Shown: piece after piece, positions 28,620 through 57,808 of the stretch
Position numbering within the stretch: the stretch's first letter is position 1
Layout of the letters: each line of letters opens with the position of its first letter
Assembly: GCA_965262725.1 (NCBI GenBank)
Contig: OZ253555.1
Location: 352,001 to 416,000 of the forward strand
From: Dehalococcoidia bacterium
GTDB lineage: Bacteria > Chloroflexota > Dehalococcoidia > UBA2979
Length of the DNA stretch: 64,000 nt
Direction: 5' to 3'
The notes under the pieces: model-generated
The model's input: the letters and a program-made list of their open reading frames with translations, nothing else
Databases searched by the model: none
Told to the model about the DNA's origin: nothing
Position numbers and translations under genes: made by a program

Positions 28620-30657
28620 GTGTCCCGAGTCGCAATAGAGACATATAACGGGTATGGTGCGGCACAGCGGGGTTGTGCCCCATGGGGCAGACTCTGGAGT
28701 GTAGGGTCAGGGGCTGGCGCGGTGCGAGCCGTAGGCGGTGGCGCATCAGTTCCAAGCCGGTTTCCCGGTGGTGCCCAACTCCACGGCCATAGCAGCGTCC
28801 GTCTCCAGCCCCTGCCACATCGAACCGGACGTGAGGTTCTCCCTCATCCGGCTCACCGATGCCCTTCACCAGATGGCATGCAGCGCTCCCCACAACGTGG
28901 GTCGTGCCTTGGCCAGCCGGTACAGCATGTGCGGAGAGCCTCGAACCCTACCAAGTGGTTGCTAGCCCCGAGGGGCACTCACCAGTCCACACCCCCAGCA
29001 ACATGCACGGACAAAGTAGGGGTCCTTCCCATCACCGGCGGTTATGTTGTCCGTCCGGCTCCAGCGGTACTACGACCCCCTCCGCCACCCTTCCGGCTGG
29101 CTGTCCACTTCCCGGCTCTGACCGGTTATAGGACGCCTCGCTCCGACGCCCTCTCACAGGGTGCCGGGCCGGGGAGGGCTTCTCCGGTTCCCGTCGCTAC
29201 CTTCCGTACGTTCCACGTCCCATACGCCGGGAGGTTTCTTGAGGCTGCATTCCAGGATCTTCACCTCGTCCATGGCCTTCGCCCTGACCACCCGGGCTCG
29301 GCTCCTCCTTGGTCCTGTCAATAGACAGGCGAGTCTCACGGCGCGGCAGACTTCGCGTCATGCTGCGGACCGCACGTTTGCTCCCCCTCATAGGGCTCTT
29401 GACGTCGGGCTTCGACGCAGACCGTTTCCCGTCCACGCCGCCGACCTGCTAACGGGCCTCCTGACAGTTACCCGTGCCGGACTCTCACCGGCTGGCAGCA
29501 ACGAGCATGTCTCCGGACCGGTCACGTCATCACGTCACCACCCCTTCGACTTCCGGACGCACGTGATGAGCACCCGAATCGGACGGCCGACGGTCGCGAT
29601 CGTCCTGAGCGACGAGGAGCGTGAGACGCTGGAGCGGTGGGCGCGCCGGCCGACATCGGCCCAGGCGCTGGCGCTGCGCTGTCGCATCGTCCTTGCAGCG
29701 GCCGAGGGGACATCGAATAAGGCGATCGCCGCGGCGCTCGATTGCCATCCGATCACCGTCGGCAAGTGGCGCCGGCGCTTTGCCCAGTGGCGGCTCGATG
29801 GGCTACAGGATGAGCCGCGCCCCGGGGCGCCGCGCACGATCACCGATGCACAGGTGGAAGCGGTGATCGTCACGACGCTGGAGGAGCAGCCTCCCAACGC
29901 GACGCACTGGTCGACCAGATCGATGGCAGCCGCGCTCGGGATGTCGCAGTCGGGGATCTCCAGGATCTGGCGCGCCTTCGGCCTGAAGCCGCACCTCGTG
30001 GAGAGCTTCAAGCTGTCGCCCGACCCGCAGTTCATCGACAAGGTCCGTGACGTGGCCGGGCTCTATCTCAACCCGCCCGACGCGGCGGTTGTGCTGTGCG
30101 TGGACGAGAAGACCCAGATCCAGGCACTCGACCGCACCGCTCAGACGGTGCCGATGATGCCCGGCGTCCCCGCCCGCCAGACGCACGACTACATCCGTCA
30201 CGGCACGACGAACCTCTACGCGGCGCTCGATGTCGCTTCGGGATGCGTGATCACGGAGATGACCCCCCGGCACCGGGCTCGGGAGTTCCAGCAGTTCCTC
30301 ACCCTCATCGACCGCAGCGTTCCCCGTGAACTGGCGGTGCATGTCGTGCTCGACAACGTCTCCACGCACCGCACGCCCGCCATCCAGCGCTGGCTCCAGC
30401 GCCATCCCCGCTTCACCTTGCATTTCACGCCGACCTACAGCTCCTGGATGAACCTCGTGGAGCGCTGGTTTGCAGAGCTCACCAGCAAGTGGCTCCGGCG
30501 CGGCACGCACCACAGCGTCCCTGATCTGATCCGCTCAGTGGAGATGTGGGTCGCCAGCTGGAACGAGAATCCGAGGCCCTTCATCTGGCACAAGTCCGCG
30601 GACCAGATCCTTGACAACCTCGCCGGATATCTAGAGCGCATCCCTGACTCGGGACAC
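28620..30657 (+). mobile_element. IS630-family insertion sequence (contains an antisense group II intron)
   Basis: Perfect 12-bp IRs GTGTCCCGAGTC / GACTCGGGACAC, flanked by duplicated TA within CTAG. Confidence 0.95.
28701..29562 (-). ncRNA. ORF-less group II intron B, copy 1 (862 nt, intact)
   Basis: 5' GTGCG at 29562; domain V GAGCCGGATGAGGGAGAACCTCACGTCCGGTTC at 28822-28854; 3' end CCCTAC at 28701; no RT ORF. Confidence 0.93.
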
Positions 30658-30660
30658 TAG
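29566..30660 (+). CDS. IS630 family transposase
   Basis: HTH..DEPRPGAPR, HWSTRSMA, CVDEKTQIQA, YIRHGT, VLDNVSTH, TPTYSSWMNLVERWF. Confidence 0.95.
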   Translation: MSTRIGRPTVAIVLSDEERETLERWARRPTSAQALALRCRIVLAAAEGTSNKAIAAALDCHPITVGKWRRRFAQWRLDGLQDEPRPGAPRTITDAQVEAVIVTTLEEQPPNATHWSTRSMAAALGMSQSGISRIWRAFGLKPHLVESFKLSPDPQFIDKVRDVAGLYLNPPDAAVVLCVDEKTQIQALDRTAQTVPMMPGVPARQTHDYIRHGTTNLYAALDVASGCVITEMTPRHRAREFQQFLTLIDRSVPRELAVHVVLDNVSTHRTPAIQRWLQRHPRFTLHFTPTYSSWMNLVERWFAELTSKWLRRGTHHSVPDLIRSVEMWVASWNENPRPFIWHKSADQILDNLAGYLERIPDSGH

Positions 30661-31129
30661 CACCTCTGCTTCGAAGTCGGTCATGTCAGGCATAGCGCCC
30701 CCCCTTGAGTTCGACTCAGCCAGTGAAACACCCCCTGAGGCTGTTGACCATGGCTCGCGTTGGGACCGCGCATCGCCGATCAGCTTCAGCGGGAAGACGG
30801 CGGCGTCCTACGACAAGTTTGCTCTCGACTCGCGCCCCCAACTCGGCAGGCTGATGGTCGCGCACAGAGGCGAGAATGACGCCATCGTCACCCACCACCT
30901 CGACGGTGCCGGGTTCCAGCAGAACGCGTCCGAACGCCACGGCAAGCGGCCTCGGGCGATGTGCGCGGACGGCCGCCGCCGCCGTGCTCGGCTGGTGGCC
31001 ACTCGCCACCCCCCGCGCGCATGCGCAGCAGGCGCCCGATCCGCCTGCGGCCCTCATCGGCCGCGACCCCCGGCGTGTATCCGTGCTGTCATCGACTGGC
31101 CTCGGGCTATCAGAAGCCGCTCATGGGCA

Positions 31130-31250
31130 CGAGAGCTGGATGAGTACATTGCGCGCGAGGTGCTGCCGCACGTGTCGGACGCTTGGGTCGACGGGAGCAA
31201 GACGAAGATCGGCTGCAAGACCCCGCTCAACCGCCACCTCTACGAGGCTG
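31130..31250 (+). pseudogene. type I R-M HsdM C-terminal remnant
   Basis: EYIAREVLPHVSDAWVDGSKTKIG..PLNRHLY. Confidence 0.7.
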
Positions 31251-31583
31251 ACCTACGCCGTCGTGATTGAGCAGACCCCGAACAACTACGGTGCCTACGC
31301 GCCGGACGTGCCCGGCTGCATCAGCGCTGCCGGCACCCCCGATAAAATGCTGGCGATGATCCGCGAGGCTCGCACCTTCCACATCGAGGCACTGATCGAA
31401 GACGGCGATCCCGTACCCGAACCCACGATGTCCATTGACGACGCGAGCCCGTACCACAGCCAGGCCCTCTCCGAGGCCGATGAGGAGTTGCTGGCGGAGT
31501 ACGGTGATGCCCCTCCGACGCTCTCGACGCGGTTCGAGCTGGTCGAGATCGAAGTTCCTGCCCTGCAGCCCGAGGCCGTGTAG
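31242..31583 (+). pseudogene. hicB: HicB-like antitoxin with ACG in place of the start codon
   Basis: RLTYAVVIEQTPNNYGAYAPDVPGCIS..IREARTFHIEAL; paralog of 35219-35557. Confidence 0.75.
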
Positions 31584-31600
31584 GTCGTCGCAGGGGACTA

Positions 31601-31760
31601 ATGGACCTCGCTCTGGTAGACGGAGAACGGCGGACACCACCAGGGGGCCGCGGCCTCTGTCAGTACTGTGGCATCGCGATGGTCGCGAGGTGCGGACGCG
31701 TCAAGATGTGGCACTGGGGCGCACATGCCGCGATCAAGTTGCGACCCTTGGTGGGGCGGC
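31601..31760 (+). pseudogene. CoiA-like protein N-terminal remnant
   Basis: ALVDGER..GLCQYCG..MVARCGRVKMWHW. Confidence 0.55.
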
Positions 31761-31809
31761 GAGCGTGGCTGGCTGGGCTACTACGCGGTCCCAGTCCGCC
31801 GCATGCCGC

Positions 31810-32418
31810 CTAGCCGGACGACGGGTAGTCGGTATCGTCACGGACGCGTTCATAGTCCTCGCGCCGGAGCCAGTGGCACCAGATATTGCGATTCTCCATG
31901 CTCAGTCGTTGCCGGTAGCGCTCCGAGCGCCAGCCCGCGACCTCGACCCGTGCGGACCCTTCCCCGTCGAGCACTTCTTCGATTGCGGGAATGAGGTCCG
32001 TGTCGCCGGAACAGATGATCGCCACGTCGTACTCGCCCCTGTACGCGAGCAGGGCTATGTCGAGCGCCATTCTCACGTCGATCCCCTTCTCCTGGGGACC
32101 CTGCCCGTCTGCGTTGTCGGGCCAGCCGTGCGGATATCTCAACTGGCGTGCGAACACATGGCAGCCGGCCCGCTCCCAGGCTTGGCACTGCCGGACGTTC
32201 GCTCGGTACGCGGCAGGTTGCAGGTAAGCGTCAGGCCTTCCCGTATACAGCCGGACTGCGGCAAGCGACCTGCCAGGGTCTCGAGAACAGAGCAGTTCAC
32301 CCAGAGCGCGCGGTTGAAACTGGCCGACCCTGTATGGGTCGATCCCATCGTCAAAGAACGCCCGCCGGGCACCGCGATAGAAGTTCTGGGCATCCACGAA
32401 GACGATGACGCGGCTCAT
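31810..32418 (-). CDS. NYN domain (PIN-like) ribonuclease
   Basis: VFVDAQNFY..QEKGIDVRMALD..CSGDTDLIPA. Confidence 0.88.
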   Translation of the reverse strand: MSRVIVFVDAQNFYRGARRAFFDDGIDPYRVGQFQPRALGELLCSRDPGRSLAAVRLYTGRPDAYLQPAAYRANVRQCQAWERAGCHVFARQLRYPHGWPDNADGQGPQEKGIDVRMALDIALLAYRGEYDVAIICSGDTDLIPAIEEVLDGEGSARVEVAGWRSERYRQRLSMENRNIWCHWLRREDYERVRDDTDYPSSG

Positions 32419-32438
32419 GGCTGCCACCGTGGGTATGC

Positions 32439-32471
32439 AAAACCCCGCCAGCCCCCGAAGGAGCGGCGGGG
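32439..32471 (-). terminator. intrinsic terminator-like hairpin immediately 5' of the NYN gene
   Basis: CCCCGCCGCTCC-TTCG-GGGGCTGGCGGGG-TTTT on the minus strand. Confidence 0.55.
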
Positions 32472-32606
32472 AGGATTGCCGGGAGTATCAGGTGCTCAGC
32501 AGTCGAAGTCAATGAGCAGGACTCTCCTTCGCGGTGTGGCGATAGCCGAGTTCCAGACGATCTCCGAGTACCTGCCCGTAGTGGTCGGCGACCTCGAGGG
32601 GCTCCG

Positions 32607-32972
32607 CTATGCGCGGCGCTCGACCGCCTCGGTGAGGCGGTCCGCGACCTTGATCCAGCCGCGAAGTTCCTCGGCGGTTGGATCGATCTCGTAGGGGTGG
32701 TGATGGCACGCTCGACTGAGCGCCCCCCACGCGTTGCTCACGGCCGCGCCGAGTTCCTCGTCGCGGAGGTACTCCCCGAGGCAAAGCAGTTGCGCGCGAG
32801 CCGAGCATAGTTCGAGGCTAGGGGCATGACGGCGCCAGAGCTCGCGCATCGCGCTCTCTATCGCCTGCCGGGCGAGCACGGCGGCAGCACGAGGCCACAA
32901 TCCAGCGGTAGCCGCCTCAGGGCGCTCAAGGAGCACGCGAGCCTCACCGATCAGCCACCGGGCGAGGGTCAC
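32607..32972 (-). CDS. hypothetical protein (possible HEPN-like) coupled to the AAA ATPase
   Basis: GTGA overlap with the upstream gene; RAAAVLARQAIE..LSRACHHHPYE. Confidence 0.65.
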   Translation of the reverse strand: MTLARWLIGEARVLLERPEAATAGLWPRAAAVLARQAIESAMRELWRRHAPSLELCSARAQLLCLGEYLRDEELGAAVSNAWGALSRACHHHPYEIDPTAEELRGWIKVADRLTEAVERRA

Positions 32973-33721
32973 TGCAGTCGCGCCAAGTCGCGCGCCAGAT
33001 TCCCCGCCCGCTCGACGAGCACCGAGAGCGTGTCGGTGCCCATCCCCACGTGAGCGCCGCTGTTGCAGTCCTTGAACGTGTCGCCCGCCGATCGCCCGTA
33101 GCGTGAGTTGATCCCCGACAGCACATCTCCCCCGCGTGTTGAGTCATCGAACAGTGCGAGGGCGGCCTTTGCCGTCAGCGTTGTGGCGTTCTCGAGCGCG
33201 AGTTCCACGTCGCGATGGACGGCACCGCGAAGGAGACGCCTTCTTCGGAACGCGTCGGTGCACGCCGCCTCAAGCGCGCTGCGGCAGAAGCCGGGCACGA
33301 CTCGGGCCGCGACGTCAGCGTCCACGCCCTCACTGCGCACGAGAGCGCGGGCATCGTCCAGATAGCGAGCGATGGGATCGGTGCCGCGACGAACCTCGAC
33401 GACGGACTTGCCTCGACGCGCGACCACGAGCTGGCTCGCGTCGATGCCGAGCCGGCGAACTGCTTCAGGCAGTCGATCATCGTGAGTGAACACCACTACC
33501 TGTCGGACCTGTGCGATGTCATCCAGGACCTTCGCCAGTCCCTCGACCTTCGACGGATCCATCGCCTGAACGGGATCGTCGATCACCACGAAGCGGAACG
33601 GGCTCTTCTGCAGGGTGGCGCGTGGCAGAAAGAGGCTGAGGGCCAGCGCGTGCAGCTCGCCCTGGCTCATCACGCCGAGCGCGGCACCTTCCGTGCCGTC
33701 CACGCGTACGTCGAGCGACAA
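32969..33721 (-). pseudogene. C-terminal half of an SMC/Rad50-like ABC ATPase
   Basis: MSQGELHALAL (signature), VVIDDPVQAMD (Walker B), VVFTHD; Walker A half missing. Confidence 0.8.
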
Positions 33722-33894
33722 TCTCCTGCGGGTGACAGTGCCACCCTACACGGTTCCCACCACCCGCCGGATCGCATCAGAATAGGTGTTACCCAAGATC
33801 TGGATGCGCGCATCAATTGCGGCCATGCCCGGTTCGATGCTCATCAGCCGTGGCGACGGAGCTATGTAGTCGAATGGCGAGTCGCGGGCATGAG

Positions 33895-34581
33895 CTAGAG
33901 GGCGACCAACTCGGCGAGCTTTCTCGCGATGTCTGCCATCGGATTCTCTGCAGTACTCAGGCCGCTTCGCGAGCCGAGCAGGGGGCTGACTTCGCGGAGA
34001 GCTTCGTATGTCGTGTTGTGCACGATGGGGACGAGCAGGTCACGCGCCAGAAGTGCCGACAACTCTTTGTCGGCGATGCCTTCTCCTTGGATGCGGCGCA
34101 GCAGCGCAGGGGTCACCAGCACGATCCCGATTCGCGATTTCGCCAGTCCCCTGTCGATTTCGCGGAGCAACGGCGTGCCGAGGCCGACATCCTTCTCGCT
34201 GAACCAGACCGAGACGCCGAGTGACACGAGCAGATCGTGCAGCTCCTTGGCGGCCTCCTGCCGGTCGTCCCACGCATGGCAGAGGAAGGCGTCCCGGGGG
34301 CCAGGCAGGGCCGCGCGCCCTTCGACGCTCTCGCGGACAGGCGTGAGAGCCCGCACTTCTGCAGGCGTGTACGACAGGGACGAACCTGGTCGCGACCATC
34401 TCGGCCTCGCGCTGCTCCCGGACCCGCCGCCGCTGCTCCGGCCGCCGGCGCTGCTCCCCGATGAGGAGTAGGACGGGGACGAGTAGGAGCGGTAGCGGCT
34501 ATAGCCGCCACCATGTACAGGGCAGGCCGCTGCACCGCTCGCTGTACGGTGGCCCATTACTGGTGCTGTACATCTAGCCAT
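33895..34581 (-). CDS. TIR domain protein with a Cys/His N-terminal motif and a Ser/Gly linker
   Basis: DAFLCHAWDDR..VSVWFSE..EIDRGLAKSRIGIVLVTP..KEL. Confidence 0.88.
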   Translation of the reverse strand: MARCTAPVMGHRTASGAAACPVHGGGYSRYRSYSSPSYSSSGSSAGGRSSGGGSGSSARPRWSRPGSSLSYTPAEVRALTPVRESVEGRAALPGPRDAFLCHAWDDRQEAAKELHDLLVSLGVSVWFSEKDVGLGTPLLREIDRGLAKSRIGIVLVTPALLRRIQGEGIADKELSALLARDLLVPIVHNTTYEALREVSPLLGSRSGLSTAENPMADIARKLAELVAL

Positions 34582-34849
34582 GTGGCCGACGATACCGAAT
34601 ACCATCGCCGCTCTCAATCGAGCCGCTCAATGCCGAGGCCAACCAGCTACAGCCGCTCGTCGCGCCGCAGCTATGGCGTCGAAGGAACGACCTGCCGAAG
34701 CTCTGGGAACGGGCGACACCGGATGAGCGGCGTCGCCTCCTGGCGCGCCGCTCAGGCACACCGCAGGGTAGGGTCAGGCCATAGCGCACGGAGGCGCGAG
34801 CACCTTTCTTGTGCAACGGCCGACTTCCTGTGCAAGGCCGCGTTATGGC

Positions 34850-34975
34850 ACCAACGTGGTCGGAATCTTCCCCAACCGCGCCGCGGTCGTGCGGGGTCGG
34901 CGTCGTGCTGGCCGAGCAGCACGACGAGTGGGCCGAGGGGAGGCGCTACATGACGATGCCGCAGCCGTGTCGTTA
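34850..34975 (+). pseudogene. IS256 transposase C-terminal remnant
   Basis: TNVVGIFPNRAAVV / VGVVLAEQHDEWAEGRRYM. Confidence 0.75.
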
Positions 34976-35218
34976 GTCAGTACCTATGATCCGCCCGTCG
35001 TCACGACCTTTGATCTACCCCCTGCGGGGCCTCTGACCGCCCGGGCCGCCGGTCCGGCCACATCGGCCGCGCGGGCTACGCTACTGCTTCGCATCGGAGC
35101 GCTCCACGATCGCGTGATCTCCCTCGCGTCGGCGACGGTCTGCCGTTCCGGTGGTGTCGAGTCCCGGCCGCAGCCCGCCGAGCCCCTCCTCGCTGGCCTC
35201 AGGCACCGGAGGCGAGCC

Positions 35219-35557
35219 CTACAGGGCCTCGGACTGCGCCCCGGGAACCTCGACGACCAGTTCGAAGCGCGTCGAGATCGTGGGGGCAGCCTCGCCGAAC
35301 TCGAGGTAGGAGTCGAGCACGTCGTCGGGGATGGGCTCGGTGTGGTGCGCGATAGCGTCGTCGATGGACATCTTCGGCTCGGGGAGCGGTTCGCCGTCCC
35401 CCAGCATGGCCTCGATATGGAAGACGAGCGCCTCGCGGATCATCGCCAGCATCTCGTCCCAGGTCTCGCCGGTGCTGACGCAGCCCGGCACGTCCGGTAC
35501 GTAGGCGCCGTAGTTGTTGGGCGTCTGCTCGAAGACAACGGCGTACGTCAGCTTCAT
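35219..35557 (-). CDS. hicB: HicB family antitoxin
   Basis: MKLTYAVVFEQTPNNYGAYVPDVPGCVSTGETWDEMLAMIREAL. Confidence 0.85.
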   Translation of the reverse strand: MKLTYAVVFEQTPNNYGAYVPDVPGCVSTGETWDEMLAMIREALVFHIEAMLGDGEPLPEPKMSIDDAIAHHTEPIPDDVLDSYLEFGEAAPTISTRFELVVEVPGAQSEAL

Positions 35558-49500: not shown

Positions 49501-51068
49501 ATCACGAACGGGAGCGTGAGCAGGCGCGCGCCGAGGCCCTCGCCGAGAGCCGCCGCGGCGAGGGCGATCGTGGCATCCGGGGCCCGGGCGTCGTCGCCCA
49601 CGAGCTCGAGTGCTTGTTCGACGCTCACTGGCTCGGGAAGGTCTGCACCGGCTGCTCGCCAGTCCTCCAGCACGGCTCGCCAGCGGCCGGCCCGGTCCCT
49701 GACCGCGCTGGGGATCGCCGCCGGGAGGCCGGCCAGTTCGGCCGTCTCGGCCGCGGTCAGGATCCCCTCCAGCGCTCGCGCCTCGACCGCGAGCTCCGCC
49801 AGGCGGACGCGGCCGCGACCGGGCACGGGGAACGCGAGGTGGGAAGCGATCCACCGCCTCGCGCGATCGGTGATCGCCTTCTCCAGGGCGCGGACTACCG
49901 GCGATGTCGTTTCGTCCTCGTCGGAGCCCGCGATCGGCATGGCGTGCCACGCGACTCCGGGATCGCGCTGGAAGAGGTCGAGCGCCGCGTGCGACCAGAG
50001 CTCGGCGATCCGGGGCAGGAGCGAGAGGTTCCAGTCGCTGTGTGCGAAGTCGCGGCGGCTCGCGAGCGGGTCGAACTGCGCGTTCACGAACAGCGGCAAT
50101 CGCGTCGAGGCGACGGGGAGTCCCTCGTGGACCTGTCCGGTCTCGACGGGGCGGAGCGGTAGCGCCACGGAGACCGGGACCGTGGAGTCGGTGGCCTTCA
50201 TGGCCCGCATGACGCCGGCGGGCGCGGAGACCTCGGTGCTGTAGACGGCCCACGAGCGCCCGTCCGCCGACTCCACTCGCTGCCGGGACGCGGTTCGGGC
50301 TCCGGGAGACGGGGGCGGGCCCAGTTCGCCCTCGTCCCGACGGGAGAGCGCGAGTTCGTGAACCACGTCGCCTTCCGGCGCGAGCAGGGTGACTCGCGAG
50401 ACGCTGCGAAGGAAGAGCAGGGCGGCATCGTCCCAGCGTTGGAGCCACTGCTCGACATCCGCCAGGCTCACGACGCCCGGTTCCAGCGGCACCCGCAGGG
50501 TGGTCCAGCCCGCCCCGCCGAACCACGCCGGCAGAGCGGGCGGCTCGATCGGCGTGACGGGGGGCTTGCCGCCGAGGCGCACGTGGTACGGGTGGCAGTG
50601 GACCTCGAGCGTGCTCGAGAGCGATCGGAGGGTCATGAGCCCGATCCCGAAGCGACCGATCGCGTCGGCTTCGTCACGCTTCGTACTGAGCCACGGCGTC
50701 GCCAGGCCGAGCACATGGCGCAGGCGCACCGGCCGGCCGTTGTGGCCTACCAGCAAGTCGGTCGGCCTCAGGAGCAGCCGGACCTGCGAGGCCCCGACAT
50801 CGTCGGCGTTCTGGACGATCTCGGAGAGCCCCTGGAGCCGATCGCTCGACAGCAGGCTGCCGCTGCTGAGACCAGCATCCAGGACACGCTTGGCGACGCC
50901 CGAGAGACGCTCGAATGCCTCACCCAGCTCCCGGGTCGCCGCCCGGGCTTCGGAGACATCGCGCGGTTCGTAGGTGGGCTCCGCACCGTCCTCGGCGTCG
51001 AACAACCGCCTGGCGGCATCCACGGCGAGCCGGACTCGCTCACCTCCAGCGTCCTGGGCCTCAGTCAT
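46506..51068 (-). CDS. large sacsin-like N-terminal GHKL ATPase protein with C-terminal DUF3883/NOV-like nuclease domain
   Basis: EIVQNADD..HNGRP..STK..IGRFGIGL; LPLFVNAQF..SRR; C-terminal GVGADAID..YELKV..LTAAE..FFLVVV. Confidence 0.82.
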   Translation of the reverse strand: MTEAQDAGGERVRLAVDAARRLFDAEDGAEPTYEPRDVSEARAATRELGEAFERLSGVAKRVLDAGLSSGSLLSSDRLQGLSEIVQNADDVGASQVRLLLRPTDLLVGHNGRPVRLRHVLGLATPWLSTKRDEADAIGRFGIGLMTLRSLSSTLEVHCHPYHVRLGGKPPVTPIEPPALPAWFGGAGWTTLRVPLEPGVVSLADVEQWLQRWDDAALLFLRSVSRVTLLAPEGDVVHELALSRRDEGELGPPPSPGARTASRQRVESADGRSWAVYSTEVSAPAGVMRAMKATDSTVPVSVALPLRPVETGQVHEGLPVASTRLPLFVNAQFDPLASRRDFAHSDWNLSLLPRIAELWSHAALDLFQRDPGVAWHAMPIAGSDEDETTSPVVRALEKAITDRARRWIASHLAFPVPGRGRVRLAELAVEARALEGILTAAETAELAGLPAAIPSAVRDRAGRWRAVLEDWRAAGADLPEPVSVEQALELVGDDARAPDATIALAAAALGEGLGARLLTLPFVIAQDRRRLVPPPQDAPEALAASATPLAEQLGVVTLLHPAHLGDGDGAPAVLAWLRESGALLDGSDDRAVVRRLAAAGRSGRRLDAPLTDEQVQALRNAFEPMNPTERDELGADVGRAVALEAYTYDRKRRRTLSARPADAYLPRTVDREPDSFAVAARETPGLVWLGGRYARVLRSPAGRGGIGALQFLRLLGAETAPRARAHPQLELRYVDRRKGLPAGVAGGVSSRRQALREREATYTLDDYDSPDLLAVVRDITRERGKRRRRERAGALLATLGRAWDRRLGDIAEVDAAAEYHNWQMRGRVRAFWLWQASAVAWLDDESGIARRPAELRVRTPGTEAIYGDDAPGYLHRDLPRSTRPDVLGALGVTTDPGRSALVRRLDQLRAASPSGGTIADVAVVYRALSRSLTTRNSRSDLTENELRRAFERGRGLVLTKAGWLPPRSVLAGPPIFGDHRAFAPAVEGTEPLWRALGLREPSPDDCVAVIRTIARRRRAPDGTELTILLETLRALASHHSRGNVVKAPTLARLPLWTSLGWVRDRARARPVYATNDRVLAEGLRGGLPLWEPGGELEQFRPLLGPLRVTELRTADSAVIEPTLAHEDEDSTELFRAALRLLHEDLARNDPQLAASVTVPWENLGEFGVSVHPSLELSVPAVVGAVSEVHTARVAAKVEPALRTVFVRDPSVLPRVDGGGRAIAALFGGDPRQLAQAWRAAWDQAEDGREANRVELANERAQREQAQNEAEIERRLAGIDARTGAGRRAAGGAAGRAAGDARPSGAADDGREADHPASEMGAPRVLVDPRWLRLLDSPGGAEEGARPDSAPAGGIGARAHRDVDLAEPNPGSSAPRNRSTLRGYSALEQENVGLEILRMLLDTDGDEIVDLRAQRGVGADAIDQLGHFYELKVSAGAEPDQVSLTAAEVKRARTTPGFFLVVVSGIEGVDARPTVRVIVDPLGQLRPTDDRGMTLSGVRQAKSRVYRFATAADPDSPSGENE

Positions 51069-51316
51069 GTCCTGGGCCCGGATCCAGGAGCGCCAGGCCA
51101 CCTGGTGATGGGGGCGTGAGGTGGAAGTCCTCTACGGCACAGCGCGAGCTGTCGATAGCGTTCCGTGGGCCGCGCGCGGGTCGCCGAGAGGCGGACCGTG
51201 AAGGGTCCGTAGCGCGGAGCGCGGGCGGGGCTGTTGCGAGAGGTCCCGGGCACCAGTGTCTGTGGCTCACCCAAGAGGAATCTCCGCGGCGCCGCGCACT
51301 GCACCAGGCACTCGCG

Positions 51317-51961
51317 CTACTCGTCGTCCCGCTCTCCGTGCTCAGTGCGCTCCCTCAGGTCGGCGAGCGATTCGCCGTTGAAGTACCAGAGGTGCGCGGC
51401 CGAGATCCAGTACGATCCCAGTCCGCCTCTACGCCGGATCTCGTTCGCGGCGGCGGTCAGCGATGTCTCTTGCCCCTCGAATTCGATCCGGCGGCGCGAG
51501 ACTACCGTGGCCGTGAACCCGGGCTCAGCTTCGGAGCCGGAGTCGTCATCGCTCCCGAAGTGCAGCACCGCTCCTGGCTCTAGCCCCACCATCTCGAAGT
51601 TGAACTTCTCTCGACGCTGCTTGGAGGCTTCCAGTGCTCGTCCAGCTTCCTCGTCTTCAACGACATCGGCCGCAGGCGTCACGTCGCGTCCCCCGGTCAA
51701 ACGCATGGCCGCAACGACGCGCTGCGCGTTGACCCGGAAAAACTCGCGGCTCCGGCGTACGCGCTGGTCACCGAATGCCTCATGCAGCAGGCGTTCGGCC
51801 CCGATGTGGTCCTCGACCTCCAGGGCGAGCGCGCACACGAAGGGCACCGGGACGCTCGTGTTGTCGAGTTGGCGCAGGCGCTGCTCGATGTCGGTCGTGC
51901 AACCGATCTTCACGACGTCGGGCATCTCCGGGTTTTCGAGACAGTAGACGATACCTGGCAT
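51317..51961 (-). CDS. GIY-YIG nuclease, T5orf172 family
   Basis: GIVYCLENPEMPDVVKIGCT..RLRQL..TSVPVPF..E..LH..REFF. Confidence 0.9.
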   Translation of the reverse strand: MPGIVYCLENPEMPDVVKIGCTTDIEQRLRQLDNTSVPVPFVCALALEVEDHIGAERLLHEAFGDQRVRRSREFFRVNAQRVVAAMRLTGGRDVTPAADVVEDEEAGRALEASKQRREKFNFEMVGLEPGAVLHFGSDDDSGSEAEPGFTATVVSRRRIEFEGQETSLTAAANEIRRRGGLGSYWISAAHLWYFNGESLADLRERTEHGERDDE

Positions 51962-52328
51962 GCGGCTCCGTTCGTGCCGGCCGCGAGCCCGTGCAGGCCA
52001 CGAGGCCGTCCCTGAAGATCAGAGGGCCATCTTCGTCACCGCGAGTGAACGTGCTCACCAGCCGCTTCCCCTCAGGGAGGGTCGGTGCGCACGAGAGTAT
52101 CCGAACCGTAAGGCGGCCCGCCAGAGAGCCAACGCCTGAGCCTTGGTCCACGTCCCGCTAGATCCAAAGCGAGTGCGCCCACGTGCAGACGCATTCCGCC
52201 GCTCAGGGCCCTGGTCGGTGCCGTCGAGGTATAGCCAGAAGTTGTGGATGAGCCAGGAGAGAGAGGCGGCGTACCCTCCCTGAGTCAACAGGAGTGGCCG
52301 GGAAGCCGGCCGGGGAGGAGTACGCCGG

Positions 52329-53352
52329 ATGTTGAGGATAGTCCATGAGGGAGGCGAGCGGGAAGCGGGGCCGGGGACGCAGGTCGGACTGGACGAGCTC
52401 TGCCGTATGGCCGCCCAGGAGATGCTCGGGGTGGCGCTGGAGGCCGAACGGCAGGCCTACCTCGAGCGTCACGCGGGCGCGGTCGATGGAGAGGGCCGCC
52501 GCGTGGTCGTCGGCAACGGCTACGCCCGCGCGAGAGAGATCACGACCGCCGCGGGACGGGTCGCCGTACAGGCGCCGCGCGTCGACGACCGCCGTCCCGG
52601 CGAGCGCTACATCTCGGCGCTTCTGCCGCCCTACATGCGGCGCTCGCCCAAGGTGACCGAGGTGTTGCCGCTGCTCTACCTGCGCGGGCTCTCGACGGGC
52701 GACTTCCTGCCCGCCCTGTCGGCGTTCTTCGGCTCGGGGGCGGGGCTCTCCGCCTCGACCGTGGGGCGGCTCACGGAGGCGTGGCAGGCCGAGCACGAGC
52801 GCTGGCAGCGACGCAGCCTGGCCGAAGTCGACTACGTCTACCTCTGGGCGGACGGCGTCCACTTCACCGTGCGTCTCGAGGAGGACCGGCTCTGCTGCCT
52901 GGTGCTGGTCGGGGTGCGCCCGGACGGCCGCAAGGAGCTGGTGGCCGTGCAGGACGGCTACCGTGAGGACACCCAGTCCTGGCTCGACCTGCTGCGGGAC
53001 CTGCGCGAGCGGGGCATGCGCGACCCCGAGCTGGCCGTCGGCGACGGGGCGCTCGGGTTCTGGGCGGCGCTGCGGGAGGTCTTCCCCCGGACCCGCGAGC
53101 AGCGCTGCTGGGTGCACAAGACCGCGAACGTCCTGGCGTCGCTGCCCGAGCGCGTCCAGGGGGAAGCAACGCGGGCGCTCCACGCCGTCTCCGGAGCCGC
53201 GACGCGCGCCGGGGCGCTGGATGCGGCGCGCACCTTCGCCGGGCAGTTCGCGCAGTGGCCGAAGGCGACAGCGAAGGTCGCCGACGACCTCGAACGGCTG
53301 CTCGCGTTCCACGACTTCCCGTCCGAGCACCACGCGCACCTGCGCACAACGA
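52329..53352 (+). pseudogene. IS256 transposase, 5' part
   Basis: LYLRGLSTGD, YLWADGV, LAVGDGALGF, QRCWVHK; ends HLRTT. Confidence 0.93.
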
Positions 53353-53519
53353 GTAGGGTGAGGAGCTGGCGCGGTACGCGCTGTAGGCCGGTGGCGCTCT
53401 TGTTCCGAGCAGGTTTCCCCGCGGTGCCCAATCCCACGGCCATGGCATATCGCCCGTTTCCAGCTCCTCCCCGTCAAACCGGACAGGCGGTTCTCCCGCA
53501 TCCGGCTTACCGACGCCCT

Positions 53520-54313
53520 TCACCGGACGGCATTCGGTTTCACCCGCCACGACCGGTTCGGCCGCGGTGCGACAACCCATCCACTGAGCGAGAGCAGACC
53601 GAGGCGGGTCGCATGGCGGTATGACACGCCGTACCGCAGACGTTGCCGACTGCGCCGACGCTTACCCCACCACACCACCAGCCGCAACGCGGCGTACGCA
53701 CTGAGCTTGCGGAACGACTTCGCCACGTTCCCGTAACGAAAATAGCCCGCCCAGCCGCGCAGGAGGCGGTTCACCTCCTGCACGATGCGCTCCACGCTCA
53801 ACACCAACCGTGACCGCACCGTCATCTCACGGATGCGGTCACGTGCATGCTGCATCGCTCGTCGCGAGGGAAAGCGTGCAAGGAATCGGAGATTCGAACC
53901 CCGCCTAGCCCGTACCCACCGGTGTTCAAAGCCGAGGAACTCCAGCCCCTCGCCTCCTTCCGCCAGGTGCACGATGCGGGTCTTCTCCGCCTTCAGCTCC
54001 AGTCCGAGCTCGGCGACCAGCTCACGGAGCAGCGCCAGCGCCGCATCCGCTTCCCGCTGCGTTCCGCAGAGCACCACAAGGTCGTCGGCATATCGCACCA
54101 GCACTCCCCGGCCCCTCGTCTCCCATTCCCGGTCAACCCGGTGCAGATAGACGTTGGCCAGAAGCGGGGATACTACCCCGCCCTGTGGCGTACCCGTCAC
54201 GCTGTGCCGCACGGCCCCGGACTCCATCACCCCGGCACGGAGCATCGCCCGCACCAGCTTCAGGAGCTTCCGGTCATATATCCGCTCCTCCACCGCCTCC
54301 ATCAACCGGTCGT
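53520..54313 (-). pseudogene. ltrA: group II intron RT/maturase, segment 3 (no endonuclease domain)
   Basis: GTPQGGVVSPLLANVYL, RYADD, KTRIV, FLGF, LRGWAGYF. Confidence 0.93.
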
Positions 54314-54450
54314 GTAGGGTCAGGTGGGAATGATGCTCTGAATTGGCCCCACCTGGAGCCGTTTTGATCCTTTGAATTGGCCCCACCCCCGACCCATCCA
54401 GGACCTACGCTCGGGTGACTGCATGACTCCCGGAGCGAGGGAAGAGGAGT

Positions 54451-56085
54451 GTGTCGAGAGTGGAGCTGTTCGAGTCTATCCGACGGATGGCGAGGGAGGA
54501 GGAGCTGTCGATCCATGAGCTGGGACGCCGGCATGGCGTGCACCGGCGCACGGTGCGGCAGGCTCTTGGGTCGGCGATACCCCCGGAACGCAAGCAGGCG
54601 ACCCGCGTGGCCCCGAAGCTCGGGCCGTACGTCTCGGTCATCCGGGGCTGGCTCGTGGACGACCTCAGCGCGCCGCGCAAGCAGCGGCACACGGCCCGGC
54701 GCATCTGGGAGCGCCTCGTCGACGAACACGGGGCGACGGTGGCCGAGCCCACGGTCCGCGCCTGCGTCGCGCGCCTGCGTCGCGAGATCCAGGGCGGGCG
54801 CGCGGTTGTGACGATCCCGCAGGTCCATCCTCCCGGCGAGGAGGCGGAGGTCGACTTCGGCACGGTGACGGTGTGGCTGGAGGGCGTCGAGACCCGGCTG
54901 GCGATGTTCGTGATGCGGCTCTCGCATTCGGGGCGGGCGGCGCACGTCTGCTTCGTCGGCGAGGGCCAGGAGTCTCTGCTCGAGGGGCACGTGGTCGCCT
55001 TCGAGCGGCTCGGCGGAGTGCCGCGGCGCATCCGCTACGACAATCTGACGGCGGCCGTCACCACCGTGCTGCAGGGACGCGAGCGCCTGCAGACCGAGCG
55101 CTTCATCGCGCTCCGCTCGCATTACGGCTTCGACAGCTTCTTCTGTGAGCCCGGCATCGAGGGCGCGCACGAGAAGGGCGGTGTGGAGGGCGAGGTCGGC
55201 CGCTTCCGCCGGCGGCACTTCGTGCCGGTCCCGAAGGTGGCGACCCTCGGCGAGCTGAACGAACGAGTGCGGGAGGCGGACCGCACCGACGACGCCCGGC
55301 ACATCGAGAGCCGCCTCGCCACCGTCGGCGAGATGGGAGAGAACGAGAAGGCCTCGCTGCGTCCGCTTCCGGCGGAGCGCTTCGACCCGTCAATCCCGCT
55401 GCGCGCGAAGGTCGACCGCAAGGCGCGCATCGCCGTGCGTAGCTCCCGCTACTCGGTCCCGGCGGCCTATGCAGGCCGGAAGCTGGACGTGCGGCTGTCC
55501 GGGAACAGCCTGACCGTGTGGGCCGAGGGGCGTGAAGTCGCCCACCACGAGCGCAGCGCCCGCACCGGAGCAGAGGTCCTGCTGCTCGACCACTATCTGG
55601 AGGTGCTCGCGCGCAAGCCCGGGGCGGTCCCGGGCTCGGTGGCGCTCCAGCAGGCGCGTGCGAAGGGACACGTCACAGCCGAGCATCAGCGCTTCTGGGA
55701 CCGCGCCCGCCGCAAGCTCGGCGACCGCGCGGGCACGCAGGCGTACATCGAGGTCCTGCTCCTGCATCGCCATCTTCCCTTCACGGCGGTGCACGCCGCG
55801 CTCGGGACGGTCAACAGGATCCAGTCGGTGAACCCCGAACTGGTCGCCATCGAGGCGCGCCGTCTCGCCGACCGCAGGCCACCAGACGCCGCCGTCGAGA
55901 GACCGCACCTGGAGCGCTACGACCGACCTGCCCCGCTCCTCGATGGCTACGATGCGCTGCTCTCGGGTGATTCCCGATGGCCCGGCACGTCGCCGGGCGG
56001 GCGCTCCCGCGCTCCGCGGTCTGCCGAGAACGCGTCGCACACCACCACAACCGCCGTCACCGCTGCGGTGTCGACGGCACGCTGA
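54451..56085 (+). CDS. istA: IS21 transposase IstA
   Basis: HTH, EAEVDFG, GGVPRRIRYDN, HEKGGVE, YSVP. Confidence 0.93.
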   Translation: MSRVELFESIRRMAREEELSIHELGRRHGVHRRTVRQALGSAIPPERKQATRVAPKLGPYVSVIRGWLVDDLSAPRKQRHTARRIWERLVDEHGATVAEPTVRACVARLRREIQGGRAVVTIPQVHPPGEEAEVDFGTVTVWLEGVETRLAMFVMRLSHSGRAAHVCFVGEGQESLLEGHVVAFERLGGVPRRIRYDNLTAAVTTVLQGRERLQTERFIALRSHYGFDSFFCEPGIEGAHEKGGVEGEVGRFRRRHFVPVPKVATLGELNERVREADRTDDARHIESRLATVGEMGENEKASLRPLPAERFDPSIPLRAKVDRKARIAVRSSRYSVPAAYAGRKLDVRLSGNSLTVWAEGREVAHHERSARTGAEVLLLDHYLEVLARKPGAVPGSVALQQARAKGHVTAEHQRFWDRARRKLGDRAGTQAYIEVLLLHRHLPFTAVHAALGTVNRIQSVNPELVAIEARRLADRRPPDAAVERPHLERYDRPAPLLDGYDALLSGDSRWPGTSPGGRSRAPRSAENASHTTTTAVTAAVSTAR

Positions 56086-56101
56086 CCACAGGAGGCACCC
56101 G

Positions 56102-56884
56102 ATGACAGCACCCCTCACCGACCAGGCCGCGGAGCTGACAATCGAGGCGATCTGCCGCGAGCTCCGTCTCCCCACCGTCAGGAAGCAGGCGCTCCCGCTC
56201 GCCGAAGCCGCGGTCCGAGACCGGATCACCCATCTGGGCTATCTCGCCGAAGTGCTGGGAGCCGAACGCGATGACCGTGAGGAGCGGCGCCGTCAGCGCC
56301 GTATCGTCGAGGCGCGGTTCCCGCGTTTCAAGTACCTCGCCGACTTCGACCTCGAGGCGGCGCCGACAGTCGACGCGCCGGCGCTCGCCACGCTGGAGCG
56401 CTGCGACTGGGTCGAAAGGGGCGAGCCCGTCGTCCTGCTCGGTGACAGCGGCACCGGGAAGTCACACCTGCTCATCGGCCTCGGCATGGCCGCCTGCCAC
56501 CTGGGGCTGCGCGTGCGGTACATGACCACGGCCGCCCTGGTGAATGAACTGGCCGAAGCGTCGGATGATCGCGCGCTCTCACGCCTCGTCGCCCGCTACG
56601 GCCGCCTCGACCTGCTCTGCCTGGATGAGTTCGGGTACGTCCACCTCGACCCGCGCGGTGCCGAAATGCTGTTCCAGATCCTGACCGAGCGCGAGGAACG
56701 GGCATCGGTCGCCGTCGCCTCCAACTCCCCGTTCTCCGAGTGGGGCCGCATCTTCACCGACCCTCGTCTCGCCGCGGCCGTCGTTGACCGCCTCACCTAC
56801 CGTGCCCATATCATCGAGACCGGCACCGAGTCCTACCGGCTCCGGGCCTCGACCTCCCCGAGAGGAGGTGCCCCAACGACCTGA
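56102..56884 (+). CDS. istB: IS21 helper ATPase IstB
   Basis: GDSGTGKSHL, LLCLDEFGY, SN.PFSEW, AVVDRL, GTESYRL. Confidence 0.93.
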   Translation: MTAPLTDQAAELTIEAICRELRLPTVRKQALPLAEAAVRDRITHLGYLAEVLGAERDDREERRRQRRIVEARFPRFKYLADFDLEAAPTVDAPALATLERCDWVERGEPVVLLGDSGTGKSHLLIGLGMAACHLGLRVRYMTTAALVNELAEASDDRALSRLVARYGRLDLLCLDEFGYVHLDPRGAEMLFQILTEREERASVAVASNSPFSEWGRIFTDPRLAAAVVDRLTYRAHIIETGTESYRLRASTSPRGGAPTT

Positions 56885-57808
56885 TCCCGGTCCCCGGGGG
56901 TGGGGCCAGATCAGAGGATCAAAGTGGGGCCAGATGTAAGCATCATTCCCAGTCAGGGGCTGGCGCGGTGCGAGCCGTAGGCGGTGGCGCATCAGTTCCA
57001 AGCCGGTTTCCCGGTGGTGCCCAACTCCACGGCCATAGCAGCGTCCGTCTCCAGCCCCTGCCACATCGAACCGGACGTGAGGTTCTCCCTCATCCGGCTC
57101 ACCGATGCCCTTCACCAGATGGCATGCAGCGCTCCCCACAACGTGGGTCGTGCCTTGGCCAGCCGGTACAGCATGTGCGGAGAGCCTCGAATCCTACCAA
57201 GTGGTTGCTAGCCCCGAGGGGCACTCACCAGTCCACACCCCCAGCAACATGCACGGACAAAGTAGGGGTCCTTCCCATCACCGGCGGTTATGTTGTCCGT
57301 CCGGCTCCAGCGGTACTACGACCCCCTCCGCCACCCTTCCGGCTGGCTGTCCACTTCCCGGCTCTGACCGGTTATAGGACGCCTCGCTCCGACGCCCTCT
57401 CACAGGGTGCCGGGCCGGGGAGGGCTTCTCCGGTTCCCGTCGCTACCTTCCGTACGTTCCACGTCCCATACGCCGGGAGGTTTCTTGAGGCTGCATTCCA
57501 GGATCTTCACCTCGTCCATGGCCTTCGCCCTGACCACCCGGGCTCGGCTCCTCCTTGGTCCTGTCAATAGACAGGCGAGTCTCACGGCGCGGCAGACTTC
57601 GCGTCATGCTGCGGACCGCACGTTTGCTCCCCCTCATAGGGCTCTTGACGTCGGGCTTCGACGCAGACCGTTTCCCGTCCACGCCGCCGACCTGCTAACG
57701 GGCCTCCTGACAGTTACCCGTGCCGGACTCTCACCGGCTGGCAGCAACGAGCATGTCTCCGGACCGGTCACGTCATCACGTCACCACCCCTTCGACTTCC
57801 GGACGCAC

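What the first reader, a model, noticed from the sequence alone, without database searches (positions are those of the whole stretch)
28701..57808. Mobile ORF-less satellite group II intron that inserts into a related intron's RT gene and into an IS
Seen: two essentially identical 862-nt ribozymes (28701-29562 and 54314-57808; I noticed one substitution, GAACCCT vs GAATCCT). Both have a GTGCG start, domain V and a CCCTAC end, but no RT ORF, and they sit at two unrelated sites. One is in sense orientation inside the RT ORF of the related intron A. The other is antisense inside an IS630. Established: group II intron mobility needs an RT/maturase, and ORF-less introns and twintrons are reported but uncommon in bacteria. 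Inference: B moved recently using an RT supplied in trans, plausibly the intron A type, whose RNA domains are visibly homologous. Sitting in the RT ORF makes RT expression depend on B splicing, which would couple helper and satellite.
Basis: partly seen in the sequence, partly recalled or inferred. Interest (0 to 1): 0.88.

Follow-up and report, generated by a model that had tools for sequence, protein, structure and literature searches.

The report
ORF-less intron invading helper introns
A small self-splicing group II intron that has lost its own reverse-transcriptase gene has copied itself 28 times in this genome, mostly into the reverse-transcriptase genes of its relatives, a rare arrangement in bacteria but one already described in a cyanobacterium and an archaeon.

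Summary
Element B is an 862-nt ORF-less group II intron on the minus strand. It has a GUGCG 5' end, an Rfam D1-D4 match, domain V, and a long domain VI with a bulged A. The window holds two copies that differ by one base. One lies antisense in an IS630-like element. The other lies in sense inside the RT ORF of intron A and is itself broken by an IS21.

Genome-wide there are 28 copies, 24 of them complete and identical. Sixteen sit at one site in the RT ORF of all 12 C-type and all 3 A-type related introns. Twelve sit at unrelated sites that share the intron-binding motifs. Exon-binding loops covary with targets across A, B and C. Paralogous IS630 copies supply precise empty sites. All 12 ectopic copies lie on the lagging-strand template. 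Removing B in silico restores the RT frame.

B is therefore a recently mobile satellite intron, mobilised in trans, most likely by the C-type RT, which can only be made after B splices out. No RNA data were available. Close precedents exist in Thermosynechococcus (TeI3/TeI4) and Methanosarcina, so this is a new member of a known kind.

The parts
28701..29562 (-). B copy 1: complete 862-nt ORF-less group II intron. EBS2 GACUCG at 29330-29335, EBS1 GUGGU at 29287-29291, remnant ORF start at 28962-28982, domain V at 28822-28854, bulged branch A at 28707.
28618..30659 (+). IS630-like element hosting B copy 1. Inverted repeats at 28620-28633 and 30644-30657; transposase ATG at 29566. B lies antisense, 3 nt upstream of the ATG. 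An unoccupied C-type intron homing site lies at 30614/30615.
53353..61539 (-). Intron A: RT-encoding group II intron, about 2,080 nt without its insertions. It is inserted antisense in an IS256/Mutator transposase gene at the codons TTN|PIES. The ribozyme 5' part runs 61539->60961 (RF02003 at 61336-61473).
60733..60960 (-). Intron A RT ORF, segment 1 (GTG start to the IS21a insertion point).
58129..60732 (-). IS21-type element 'a' (IstA plus IstB) inserted in the A RT ORF, with a 7-bp duplication CCGACTG.
57809..58121 (-). Intron A RT ORF, segment 2 (RVT_1 profile positions 1-83), ending ...CFESIP plus the first base of the His codon.
54314..57808 (-). B copy 2, in sense in the A RT ORF. Intron nt 1-857 lie at 57808->56952 and nt 858-862 at 54318->54314. 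It has one substitution relative to copy 1 and is inactivated by IS21b in the 3' strand of domain VI.
54325..56951 (+). IS21-type element 'b' (IstA 54451-56085, IstB about 56100-56884 on the + strand) inside B copy 2, with a 6-bp duplication CCTGAC.
53520..54313 (-). Intron A RT ORF, segment 3 (RVT_1 positions 90-204 with YADD, plus the GIIM maturase domain and the stop codon). It is followed by A's domains V and VI down to 53353.
52329..53352 (+). N-terminal part of the IS256/Mutator-family transposase gene split by intron A. The C-terminal part resumes at 61540 on the + strand.

Best explanation
B is a deletion derivative of a C-like, endonuclease-less group II intron. It keeps the whole ribozyme and the two ends of the former RT ORF in domain IV, but encodes no protein.

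Shown:
- B has inserted precisely at 27 sites, giving 28 copies. At each site the target pairs with its EBS2 (GACUCG) and EBS1 (GUGGU) loops.
- Its preferred site is the conserved codons for FESIP|H in the RT genes of two related intron families. All 12 C-type and all 3 A-type copies are occupied.
- Taking B out restores the RT frame.

Inferred:
- B RNA is spliced and then reverse-spliced into DNA by an RT/maturase supplied in trans, most likely the C-type protein.
- That protein can only be translated from C transcripts from which B has already been spliced, so helper and satellite are coupled in a twintron.
- cDNA synthesis is primed at replication forks, because the RT has no endonuclease domain and the insertions lie on the lagging-strand template.
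For: Copy number and identity: whole-genome blastn finds 24 complete copies at 100% identity plus 4 interrupted ones.

Insertion sites: 16 copies lie at TTTCGAGTCGATACCGC|ACGACCG in RT ORFs, including one head-to-tail B-B tandem. Twelve lie at other sites.

Target pairing: at fixed spacing, 8 of the 12 ectopic sites have at least 9 of 11 possible EBS/IBS pairs. Only 1.0% of 200,000 random genome positions reach that.

Covariation: the same two loops differ among B, C and A in step with their targets.
- B: GACUCG/GUGGU against CGAGUC/ACCGC.
- C: CGGAUA/CAAUU against UAUCCG/GGUUG.
- A: GAGUCC/ACCC against GGACUC/GGGU.

Empty sites:
- 12 IS630 paralogs carry the uninterrupted site of window copy 1, with no duplication. 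Eleven of the 12 have G at -3, where the filled copy has the C that pairs with EBS1.
- Contigs joining exactly across B (skip of 862 nt, ends GT..AC) occur in 3 of 4 runs laid, and in none from the best-holding run.
- A same-genus genome has a 2,073-nt C-like intron without B.

Origin by ORF deletion: B aligns to C and A through domains I-III, the first ~90 nt of the ORF, the last ~25 nt of the ORF, and domains V-VI.

Helper: removing B restores a 461-codon frame in 9 of 12 C copies and a 444-codon frame in A, with YADD and a GIIM domain and nothing beyond. Every C and A RT is split at RVT_1 positions 83/90.

Replication link: the cumulative GC-skew minimum is near 0.41 Mb, dnaA is at 0.478 Mb and the skew maximum is near 2.52 Mb. 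All 12 ectopic B copies, 10 of 12 C and 3 of 3 A lie with their sense strand on the lagging-strand template. One ectopic copy sits within ~20 kb of the skew maximum and is ambiguous.

Precedent: trans mobilisation of ORF-less introns by related RTs was shown experimentally in T. elongatus (PMC2882425, passages).
Against: There is no RNA evidence. No RNA holder was listed, so splicing of B, and of the twintron, is unobserved.

No uninterrupted cognate RT gene exists in the assembly. The first RT molecules therefore require B to splice without its maturase, or with help from another source. This is a real bootstrapping gap.

The genome is an estimated 91.55% complete single contig. A B-less copy on an unassembled replicon cannot be excluded.

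Perfect identity among repeats may be partly inflated by consensus polishing of a metagenome-derived assembly.

C copies are themselves at least 99.8% identical and A copies about 100%. The 'inner identical, outer diverged' argument used for T. elongatus therefore cannot separate independent homing from spread of the composite element.

Short-read contigs break at the repeat borders, and none listed bridges a B/C junction by 31 nt. They give no independent confirmation of the occupied junctions.
Confidence: 0.78

Rival explanations
1. Most RT-hosted B copies are passengers. The composite twintron C(B) or A(B), or the IS630 that carries it, spread as a unit, or B spread among C copies by gene conversion. 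B itself would have homed into an RT gene only a few times.
For: C copies are at least 99.8% identical to each other and all 12 carry B. A copies are about 100% identical and all 3 carry B. C sits in a multicopy IS630 family. Mohr et al. list retromobility of the composite intron as a possible route (PMC2882425, passages).
Against: A and C are only 78% identical yet carry identical B at the same site, so there were at least two independent homings.

The head-to-tail B-B tandem inside one C copy needs a second insertion at an occupied site.

Twelve ectopic insertions show that B moves on its own.

C is found in at least three IS630 flank variants.

B-less C forms exist in other samples.

This rival is compatible with the main reading. 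It only changes how many of the 16 RT-hosted copies count as separate events.
Confidence: 0.35
2. B is mobilised by the RT of the unrelated RF02005-class introns, which are the only group II RT genes in this genome that are uninterrupted. The C and A RTs would be dead.
For: Twelve full-length RVT_1 matches in open frames of 475-500 codons belong to introns with RF02005 D1-D4 structures. No cognate RT gene is uninterrupted. Some T. elongatus RTs have relaxed intron specificity (PMC2882425, passages).
Against: B's ribozyme and its remnant domain IV, including the ORF start region, are 86-89% identical to C and 79% to A. B belongs to a different Rfam D1-D4 subfamily from the RF02005 introns. That the RT binding site usually lies in this domain IV region is recalled knowledge, not a result of any call.

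The C frame is intact after B removal in 9 of 12 copies, 8 of them with identical protein, which would be unexpected for long-dead genes.
Confidence: 0.1
3. B is no longer mobile. The identical copies reflect assembly or polishing homogenisation, or DNA-level recombination, rather than recent retromobility.
For: The genome looks metagenome-derived: same-genus records are titled MAGs. Repeats in such assemblies can be homogenised. No RNA data were available.
Against: There are 27 different flanks with exact intron boundaries and no target duplications. Targets match the EBS loops far above background. The strand bias relative to replication is complete. Four copies are broken by later IS or intron insertions, which polishing would not create. 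The twintron words are held by 20 runs from 8 studies.
Confidence: 0.05

Closest known systems
TeI3 (ORF-less) and TeI4 (RT-encoding) introns of Thermosynechococcus elongatus (Mohr et al. 2010, PMC2882425; passages read)
   Same: An ORF-less intron derived by a single domain IV deletion that keeps remnants of both ORF ends. Copy number is similar: 17 ORF-less of 28 introns there, 28 B copies here. [quoted passage not shown] Twintrons form by insertion into the ORF of the related RT-encoding intron, and the inner introns are identical. Introns also target insertion sequences. Mobilisation in trans by related RTs was shown experimentally there.
   Different: There the inner intron sits between the first two ATGs, so the RT can be made from the second ATG without splicing, and two RT genes are uninterrupted. 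Here B splits the RT domain itself (RVT_1 positions 83/90) and all 15 cognate RT genes are occupied, so no bypass is visible. The host phylum differs (probably Chloroflexota, class Dehalococcoidia, judged from the titles of same-genus and same-family records), and the intron lineage may differ too. The RT here has no endonuclease domain.
Nested ORF-less and RT-encoding introns of Methanosarcina acetivorans (Dai and Zimmerly 2003). The paper is not held. It is known here only from its title in a reference list and its description in the review PMC4424553.
   Same: A pattern of site-specific homing of group II introns into related introns and their ORFs. ORF-less members sit alongside RT-encoding ones. 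Nests have several levels; this genome has a three-level nest of A, B and an RF02005-class intron. The intron provides a perpetual homing site.
   Different: That host is an archaeon, and the review describes repeated cycles balanced by deletion. I could not compare insertion positions or copy identity because the paper itself was not available.
RmInt1 of Sinorhizobium meliloti (abstracts in the search listing; reference titles)
   Same: The RT lacks the DNA-binding and endonuclease domains. The homing site lies in an IS of the IS630-Tc1 superfamily, as for the C-type introns here. Insertion is predominantly into the lagging-strand template at replication forks, matching the strand bias seen here.
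   Different: RmInt1 encodes its own RT and is not described in what I read as forming twintrons with an ORF-less satellite. Class membership of A, B and C relative to RmInt1 was not tested.
Trichodesmium erythraeum twintron T.e.I7/I8 (Pfreundt and Hess 2015, PMC4649490; passages read)
   Same: A bacterial group II twintron for which sequential splicing, inner intron first, was shown in vivo.
   Different: Both of its introns encode proteins. It interrupts a host gene rather than the helper's RT gene, and it is a single locus, not a proliferating family.

Membership tests
Group II intron ribozyme | Conserved 5' end GUGYG and 3' end AY | tested here: met
   GTGCG at 29562-29558 and ...CCCTAC ending at 28701 on the minus strand. 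The boundaries are identical in all 24 complete copies.
Group II intron ribozyme | Domain I-IV core matching a curated covariance model above its gathering score | tested here: met
   RF02003 (group-II-D1D4-4) at 102.8 bits against a gathering score of 49, for both window copies.
Group II intron ribozyme | Domains V/VI matching Rfam RF00029 above its gathering score | tested here: not met
   37.5 bits against a gathering score of 40. The domain V hairpin itself aligns well. The shortfall comes from a ~110-nt expansion of domain VI, which is shared with introns A and C.
Group II intron ribozyme | Domain VI helix with a bulged branch-point A 7-8 nt from the 3' splice site | tested here: met
   The minimum-free-energy and centroid folds of the last 160 nt leave the A at -7 unpaired in a long helix; z-score -4.06.
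Group II intron ribozyme | EBS1/EBS2 loops complementary to the 5' exon | tested here: met
   The homing site pairs 11 of 11. Eight of 12 ectopic sites pair at least 9 of 11, against 1.0% of background positions. The loops covary with targets in A, B and C.
Group II intron ribozyme | Splicing activity | not testable with these tools
   No RNA run was listed.
ORF-less group II intron mobilised in trans (TeI3 type) | No intron-encoded protein, with remnants of the ORF ends in domain IV | tested here: met
   A 6-codon remnant follows the conserved GTG. Alignment to C and A shows the first ~90 nt and last ~25 nt of the ORF retained. Overlapping long frames hit no Pfam family.
ORF-less group II intron mobilised in trans (TeI3 type) | Closely related RT-encoding introns in the same genome | tested here: met
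   12 C-type copies (86-89% identical to B) and 3 A-type copies (79%). RT frames of 461 and 444 codons appear after removal of B.
ORF-less group II intron mobilised in trans (TeI3 type) | Multiple independent precise insertions | tested here: met
   27 sites with unrelated flanks. Precise empty sites exist in paralogs and in other samples.
ORF-less group II intron mobilised in trans (TeI3 type) | Mobilisation by a named RT demonstrated | not testable with these tools
   Needs a mobility assay.
Twintron | One intron lying inside another in the same orientation, with intact boundaries of both | tested here: met
   B lies in sense inside A in the window and inside all 12 C and 3 A copies genome-wide.
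Twintron | Sequential splicing of the inner then the outer intron | not testable with these tools
   No RNA data. The library type of the runs that show the B-less joint is not on record.
Endonuclease-less, replication-fork-primed retrohoming (RmInt1-like behaviour) | RT lacking the DNA-binding/endonuclease domain | tested here: met
   Pfam finds only RVT_1 and GIIM in the RT halves, and the frame ends about 40 residues after GIIM. Absence is judged from Pfam and protein length only.
Endonuclease-less, replication-fork-primed retrohoming (RmInt1-like behaviour) | Insertion bias to the lagging-strand template | tested here: met
   12 of 12 ectopic B (one near the terminus is ambiguous), 10 of 12 C and 3 of 3 A.
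Endonuclease-less, replication-fork-primed retrohoming (RmInt1-like behaviour) | Phylogenetic membership in RmInt1's intron class | not tested

The most novel reading that the evidence does not exclude
B has saturated every copy of its own helper, so the system is an obligate two-part retroelement. RT can be made only after B splices out, and B probably needs that RT as its maturase. Together these form a self-reinforcing on/off switch. It would keep both introns silent until a threshold of RT is reached and then release bursts of mobility, such as the one that produced 24 identical copies. On this reading the satellite is not only a parasite but the regulator of its helper family.
Probability: 0.25. 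Interest if true: 0.7.

Novelty: new member of a known kind. Interest (0 to 1): 0.52.

Why it matters
ORF-less group II introns and twintrons are described as rare in bacteria (review PMC4424553). The well-studied case of an ORF-less intron proliferating by trans mobilisation is a single thermophilic cyanobacterium (PMC2882425).

This genome offers a second, independent natural system, probably in an uncultured high-GC Dehalococcoidia lineage. It has:
- a compact 862-nt mobile ribozyme;
- a clear target code;
- a complete strand bias;
- a helper RT whose synthesis is gated by splicing of the satellite.

The system bears on how ribozyme and protein functions separate, which is a step in models for the origin of the spliceosome. 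It also bears on how parasites of selfish elements can control them. Finally, it could supply a small trans-driven intron for gene targeting.

Tried and rejected
RNA evidence: the look-up of sequencing runs listed no RNA holder, so expression and splicing could not be examined.

Occupied junctions: in read laying the short-read contigs stop at the repeat borders. No listed piece bridges a B/C junction by 31 nt on both sides, so they neither confirm nor contradict the occupied junctions. The library kind of X15 and X20 is not on record and X7 is only guessed to be DNA. The exact B-less joint could therefore be an empty DNA site or spliced RNA.

Same arrangement elsewhere:
- Among 80 loci of RT relatives from other genomes, 78 have the two RT halves adjacent and 1 could not be assessed.
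- The remaining one, L043, has a 2.7-kb insertion with no group II signature.
- A B-specific 33-mer found 0 matches in metagenome contigs.
- A degenerate 'RT site + GTGYG' pattern found 92 stretches. None of the 80 listed encodes an RT half next to the match, so they are chance hits. The other 12 were not listed.
- Of 40 related genomes, 4 have C- or A-like introns and none has B. A 1.3-kb candidate in G008 is a fragment without a D1-D4 match.

Rejected lead: a 1.33-kb insertion next to one ectopic B copy looked like a second satellite intron. It is an IS with terminal inverted repeats and 6 copies.

Gene context of the ectopic sites: frames and GC3 across the junctions gave mixed, unconfirmed results. 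I make no claim about which host genes are hit.

Outer versus inner divergence: this test cannot separate independent homing from composite spread, because C and A copies are nearly identical too.

Dai and Zimmerly 2003 and Simon et al. 2008 are not held. Supplementary files were not consulted; the supplementary alignments of Mohr et al. could refine the comparison.

Full report
**What is in the window.** All the intron sequences lie on the minus strand. The repeat finder reports 28706-29454 and 56952-57700 as identical direct repeats, with a third, 77-82% similar copy at 61140-61432. Rfam places a full-length group-II-D1D4-4 match (RF02003) on each: 102.8, 102.8 and 83.3 bits against a gathering score of 49.

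Read on the minus strand, element B starts with GTGCG at 29562 and ends with CCCTAC at 28701, a length of 862 nt. The second copy starts at 57808 and matches through nt 857, with one substitution at nt 617. There it is cut by a 2,627-bp IS21-type element (IstA and IstB by Pfam; 6-bp duplication CCTGAC). It resumes at 54318 for its last 5 nt.

B has the following features:
- a domain V hairpin inside an RF00029 match of 37.5 bits, just under the gathering score of 40;
- a long domain VI whose fold leaves an A unpaired 7 nt from the 3' end;
- no protein: the conserved GTG start is followed by six codons and a stop, and the long frames that overlap B hit no Pfam family.

**Contexts in the window.** Copy 1 lies antisense in an IS630-like element (inverted repeats at 28620-28633 and 30644-30657; DDE_3 plus HTH domains). 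It sits 3 nt upstream of the transposase ATG.

Copy 2 lies in sense inside the RT ORF of intron A (61539->53353), between ...CFESIP and HDRLM.... The two RT halves match RVT_1 positions 1-83 and 90-204, followed by the GIIM maturase domain.

Intron A is also broken by a second IS21 (58129-60732, 7-bp duplication). It sits antisense in a Mutator/IS256-family transposase gene at the codons TTN|PIES. So the window copy of the A(B) twintron is dead twice over. It omitted only the IS21 inside copy 2.

**The whole genome changes the scale.** The window is part of a single 3.67-Mb contig. blastn of B against it finds 24 complete copies at 100% identity and 4 interrupted ones, 28 in all.

- Sixteen copies sit at one sequence, TTTCGAGTCGATACCGC|ACGACCG. 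This is the FESIP|H site of RT genes. They occupy 12 'C-type' introns (86-89% identical to B; 2,074 nt without B) and 3 'A-type' introns (79% identical). One C copy holds two B copies head to tail.
- The other 12 copies are at unrelated sites.

Pfam searches of the genome show that every C- and A-type RT is split at this point. The only uninterrupted group II RT genes belong to a different family with RF02005-type ribozymes: twelve full-length RVT_1 matches.

**Insertion, not duplication.**
- The 27 sites have unrelated flanks.
- For window copy 1, 12 paralogous IS630 elements carry the uninterrupted site with no target duplication. Eleven of them have G at position -3, where the occupied copy has C.
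- For the RT site, contigs that join exactly across B (skip of 862 nt) occur in runs X7, X15 and X20 but not in X1, the best holder.
- A genome of the same genus has a 2,073-nt C-like intron without B.
- In 78 of 80 loci of RT relatives from other genomes the two RT halves are adjacent. One locus could not be assessed, and one has an unrelated 2.7-kb insertion.

**Target recognition.** Aligning B, C and A shows two loops that differ among them. Each loop is complementary to that intron's own 5' exon:

| Intron | EBS2 / EBS1 loops | Target IBS2 / IBS1 |
|---|---|---|
| B | GACUCG / GUGGU | CGAGUC / ACCGC |
| C | CGGAUA / CAAUU | UAUCCG / GGUUG |
| A | GAGUCC / ACCC | GGACUC / GGGU |

At fixed spacing, 8 of the 12 ectopic B sites make at least 9 of 11 pairs, against 1.0% of 200,000 random positions. 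The other four show the CGAG core displaced by one or two bases.

The C at -3 of the occupied IS630 copy is the base that pairs with EBS1.

The RT site itself is a conserved coding motif. Of 80 RT sites in other genomes, 43 keep at least 5 of 6 IBS2 pairs and at least 4 of 5 IBS1 pairs. B has therefore chosen a target that its helpers cannot easily lose.

**Origin and helper.** B aligns with C and A through domains I-III, the first ~90 nt of the RT ORF, the last ~25 nt of the ORF, and domains V and VI. The unusual long domain VI is shared by all three. B is thus an ORF-deletion derivative of a C-like intron.

Removing B in silico restores a 461-codon frame in 9 of 12 C copies, with identical protein in 8 of them. 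The other three have extra insertions. The same operation restores a 444-codon frame in A. The frame carries YADD and a maturase domain and no endonuclease domain.

B splits the RT domain itself, so I see no way to make a functional RT without removing B from the transcript. That the C-type RT is the helper is an inference from sequence relatedness. That B and the twintron splice at all is an inference too.

**Link to replication.** Cumulative GC skew has its minimum near 0.41 Mb and its maximum near 2.52 Mb, and dnaA lies at 0.478 Mb.
- All ectopic B copies left of the origin or right of the terminus are on the minus strand. All those between are on the plus strand.
- So 12 of 12 have their sense strand on the lagging-strand template. 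One copy, at 2.536 Mb, is too close to the terminus to call.
- The same holds for 10 of 12 C copies and 3 of 3 A copies.

This is the behaviour reported for endonuclease-less introns such as RmInt1 (abstract of PMC8914252 in the listing; review PMC4424553).

**How many independent events.** A and C are only 78% identical but carry the same B at the same site. The tandem needs a second hit on an occupied site. The 12 ectopic copies are separate events. That gives at least 15 insertions.

Within each family the outer introns are almost identical: C at least 99.8%, A about 100%. I therefore cannot tell whether each C copy was invaded separately or whether the composite spread.

**Comparison with what is known.** The review by Zimmerly and Semper states three relevant points (PMC4424553, passages):
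- They nearly always accompany related RT-encoding introns.
- Methanosarcina acetivorans introns home repeatedly into other introns.

The title of the primary paper speaks of homing into related intron ORFs. The paper itself is not held.

Mohr et al. describe T. elongatus (PMC2882425, passages). It has 17 ORF-less introns from one deletion and five twintrons formed by insertion into the RT ORF of related introns. The inner introns are identical, and mobilisation in trans was demonstrated.

The present case matches that pattern closely. The differences are:
- the position of the inner intron, mid-RT domain rather than between two start codons;
- the occupation of all 15 cognate RT genes;
- the endonuclease-less RT with its replication-linked strand bias;
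- the host, probably a high-GC member of the Dehalococcoidia, judged from the titles of the same-genus and same-family records.

**Verdict.** This is a vivid and well-defined natural system, but the principle is already in print. I rate it a new member of a known kind, with moderate interest. The boldest reading still open is that satellite and helper form an obligate, self-reinforcing switch. I give that about one chance in four.

Noticed in passing
genome G000:C1:734423-736345 (locus L092); relative loci L012, L191, L192: A ~1.92-kb RT-encoding intron of a different Rfam subfamily (RF02005) is inserted inside domain V of a B copy that itself sits in an A intron, making a three-level nest. 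In the related genome G008, 3 of 3 C-like introns examined carry an RF02005-class intron at the equivalent domain V position. This second family therefore seems to home into domain V of the B/C/A family. Its copies end in ...CCCTACCGCGAA, an unusual 3' end that I did not resolve.
   Followed up: partly
genome G000:C1:1524130-1524991 (locus L094): One ectopic B copy lies in the RT ORF of an RF02005-class intron (...PIYESGY|YGFSHGF), at a different RT motif. The same 40-nt site is present and unoccupied in 10 other copies of that family.
   Followed up: partly
window 30506-30659: C-type introns insert antisense about 45 nt from the right end of IS630-like elements (target ...GATATCCGGTGAGGTTG|TCAAGG). 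The IS630 in the window has this site unoccupied at 30614/30615, while 12 other copies genome-wide are occupied.
   Followed up: partly
window 52329-53352 and 61540-61790: Intron A splits a Mutator/IS256-family transposase gene, antisense, exactly in the conserved TTN|PIES codons. A second A copy sits at the same site of another IS256 variant, and a third at a different site.
   Followed up: partly
window 54325-56951 and 58129-60732; genome-wide: Two different IS21-type elements have landed in the A(B) twintron. The dnaA-domain search picked up about 35 IstB-like matches across the genome, so IS21 elements are very abundant. At least three other B or C copies are broken by later insertions.
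   Followed up: no
genome G000:C1:1876107-1877442 and five other places: A 1.33-kb insertion sequence with terminal inverted repeats (6 copies, at least 99.7% identical) has inserted into two RF02005-class RT ORFs within about 30 nt of each other, in opposite orientations.
   Followed up: no
window 3231-4856, 12417-12612, 22515-24137: Another repeat family in the window, about 1.6 kb at 93-97% identity between 3.2-4.9 kb and 22.5-24.1 kb, with a 196-nt piece also at 12.4 kb. It is unrelated to the finding and was not examined.
   Followed up: no
genome G000:C1:549500-551223 (locus L096): Two complete B copies lie head to tail with no spacer inside one C intron. This implies re-insertion at the 5' exon/intron junction of an already occupied site, so the first 3'-exon base (G instead of A) is not critical.
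   Followed up: partly
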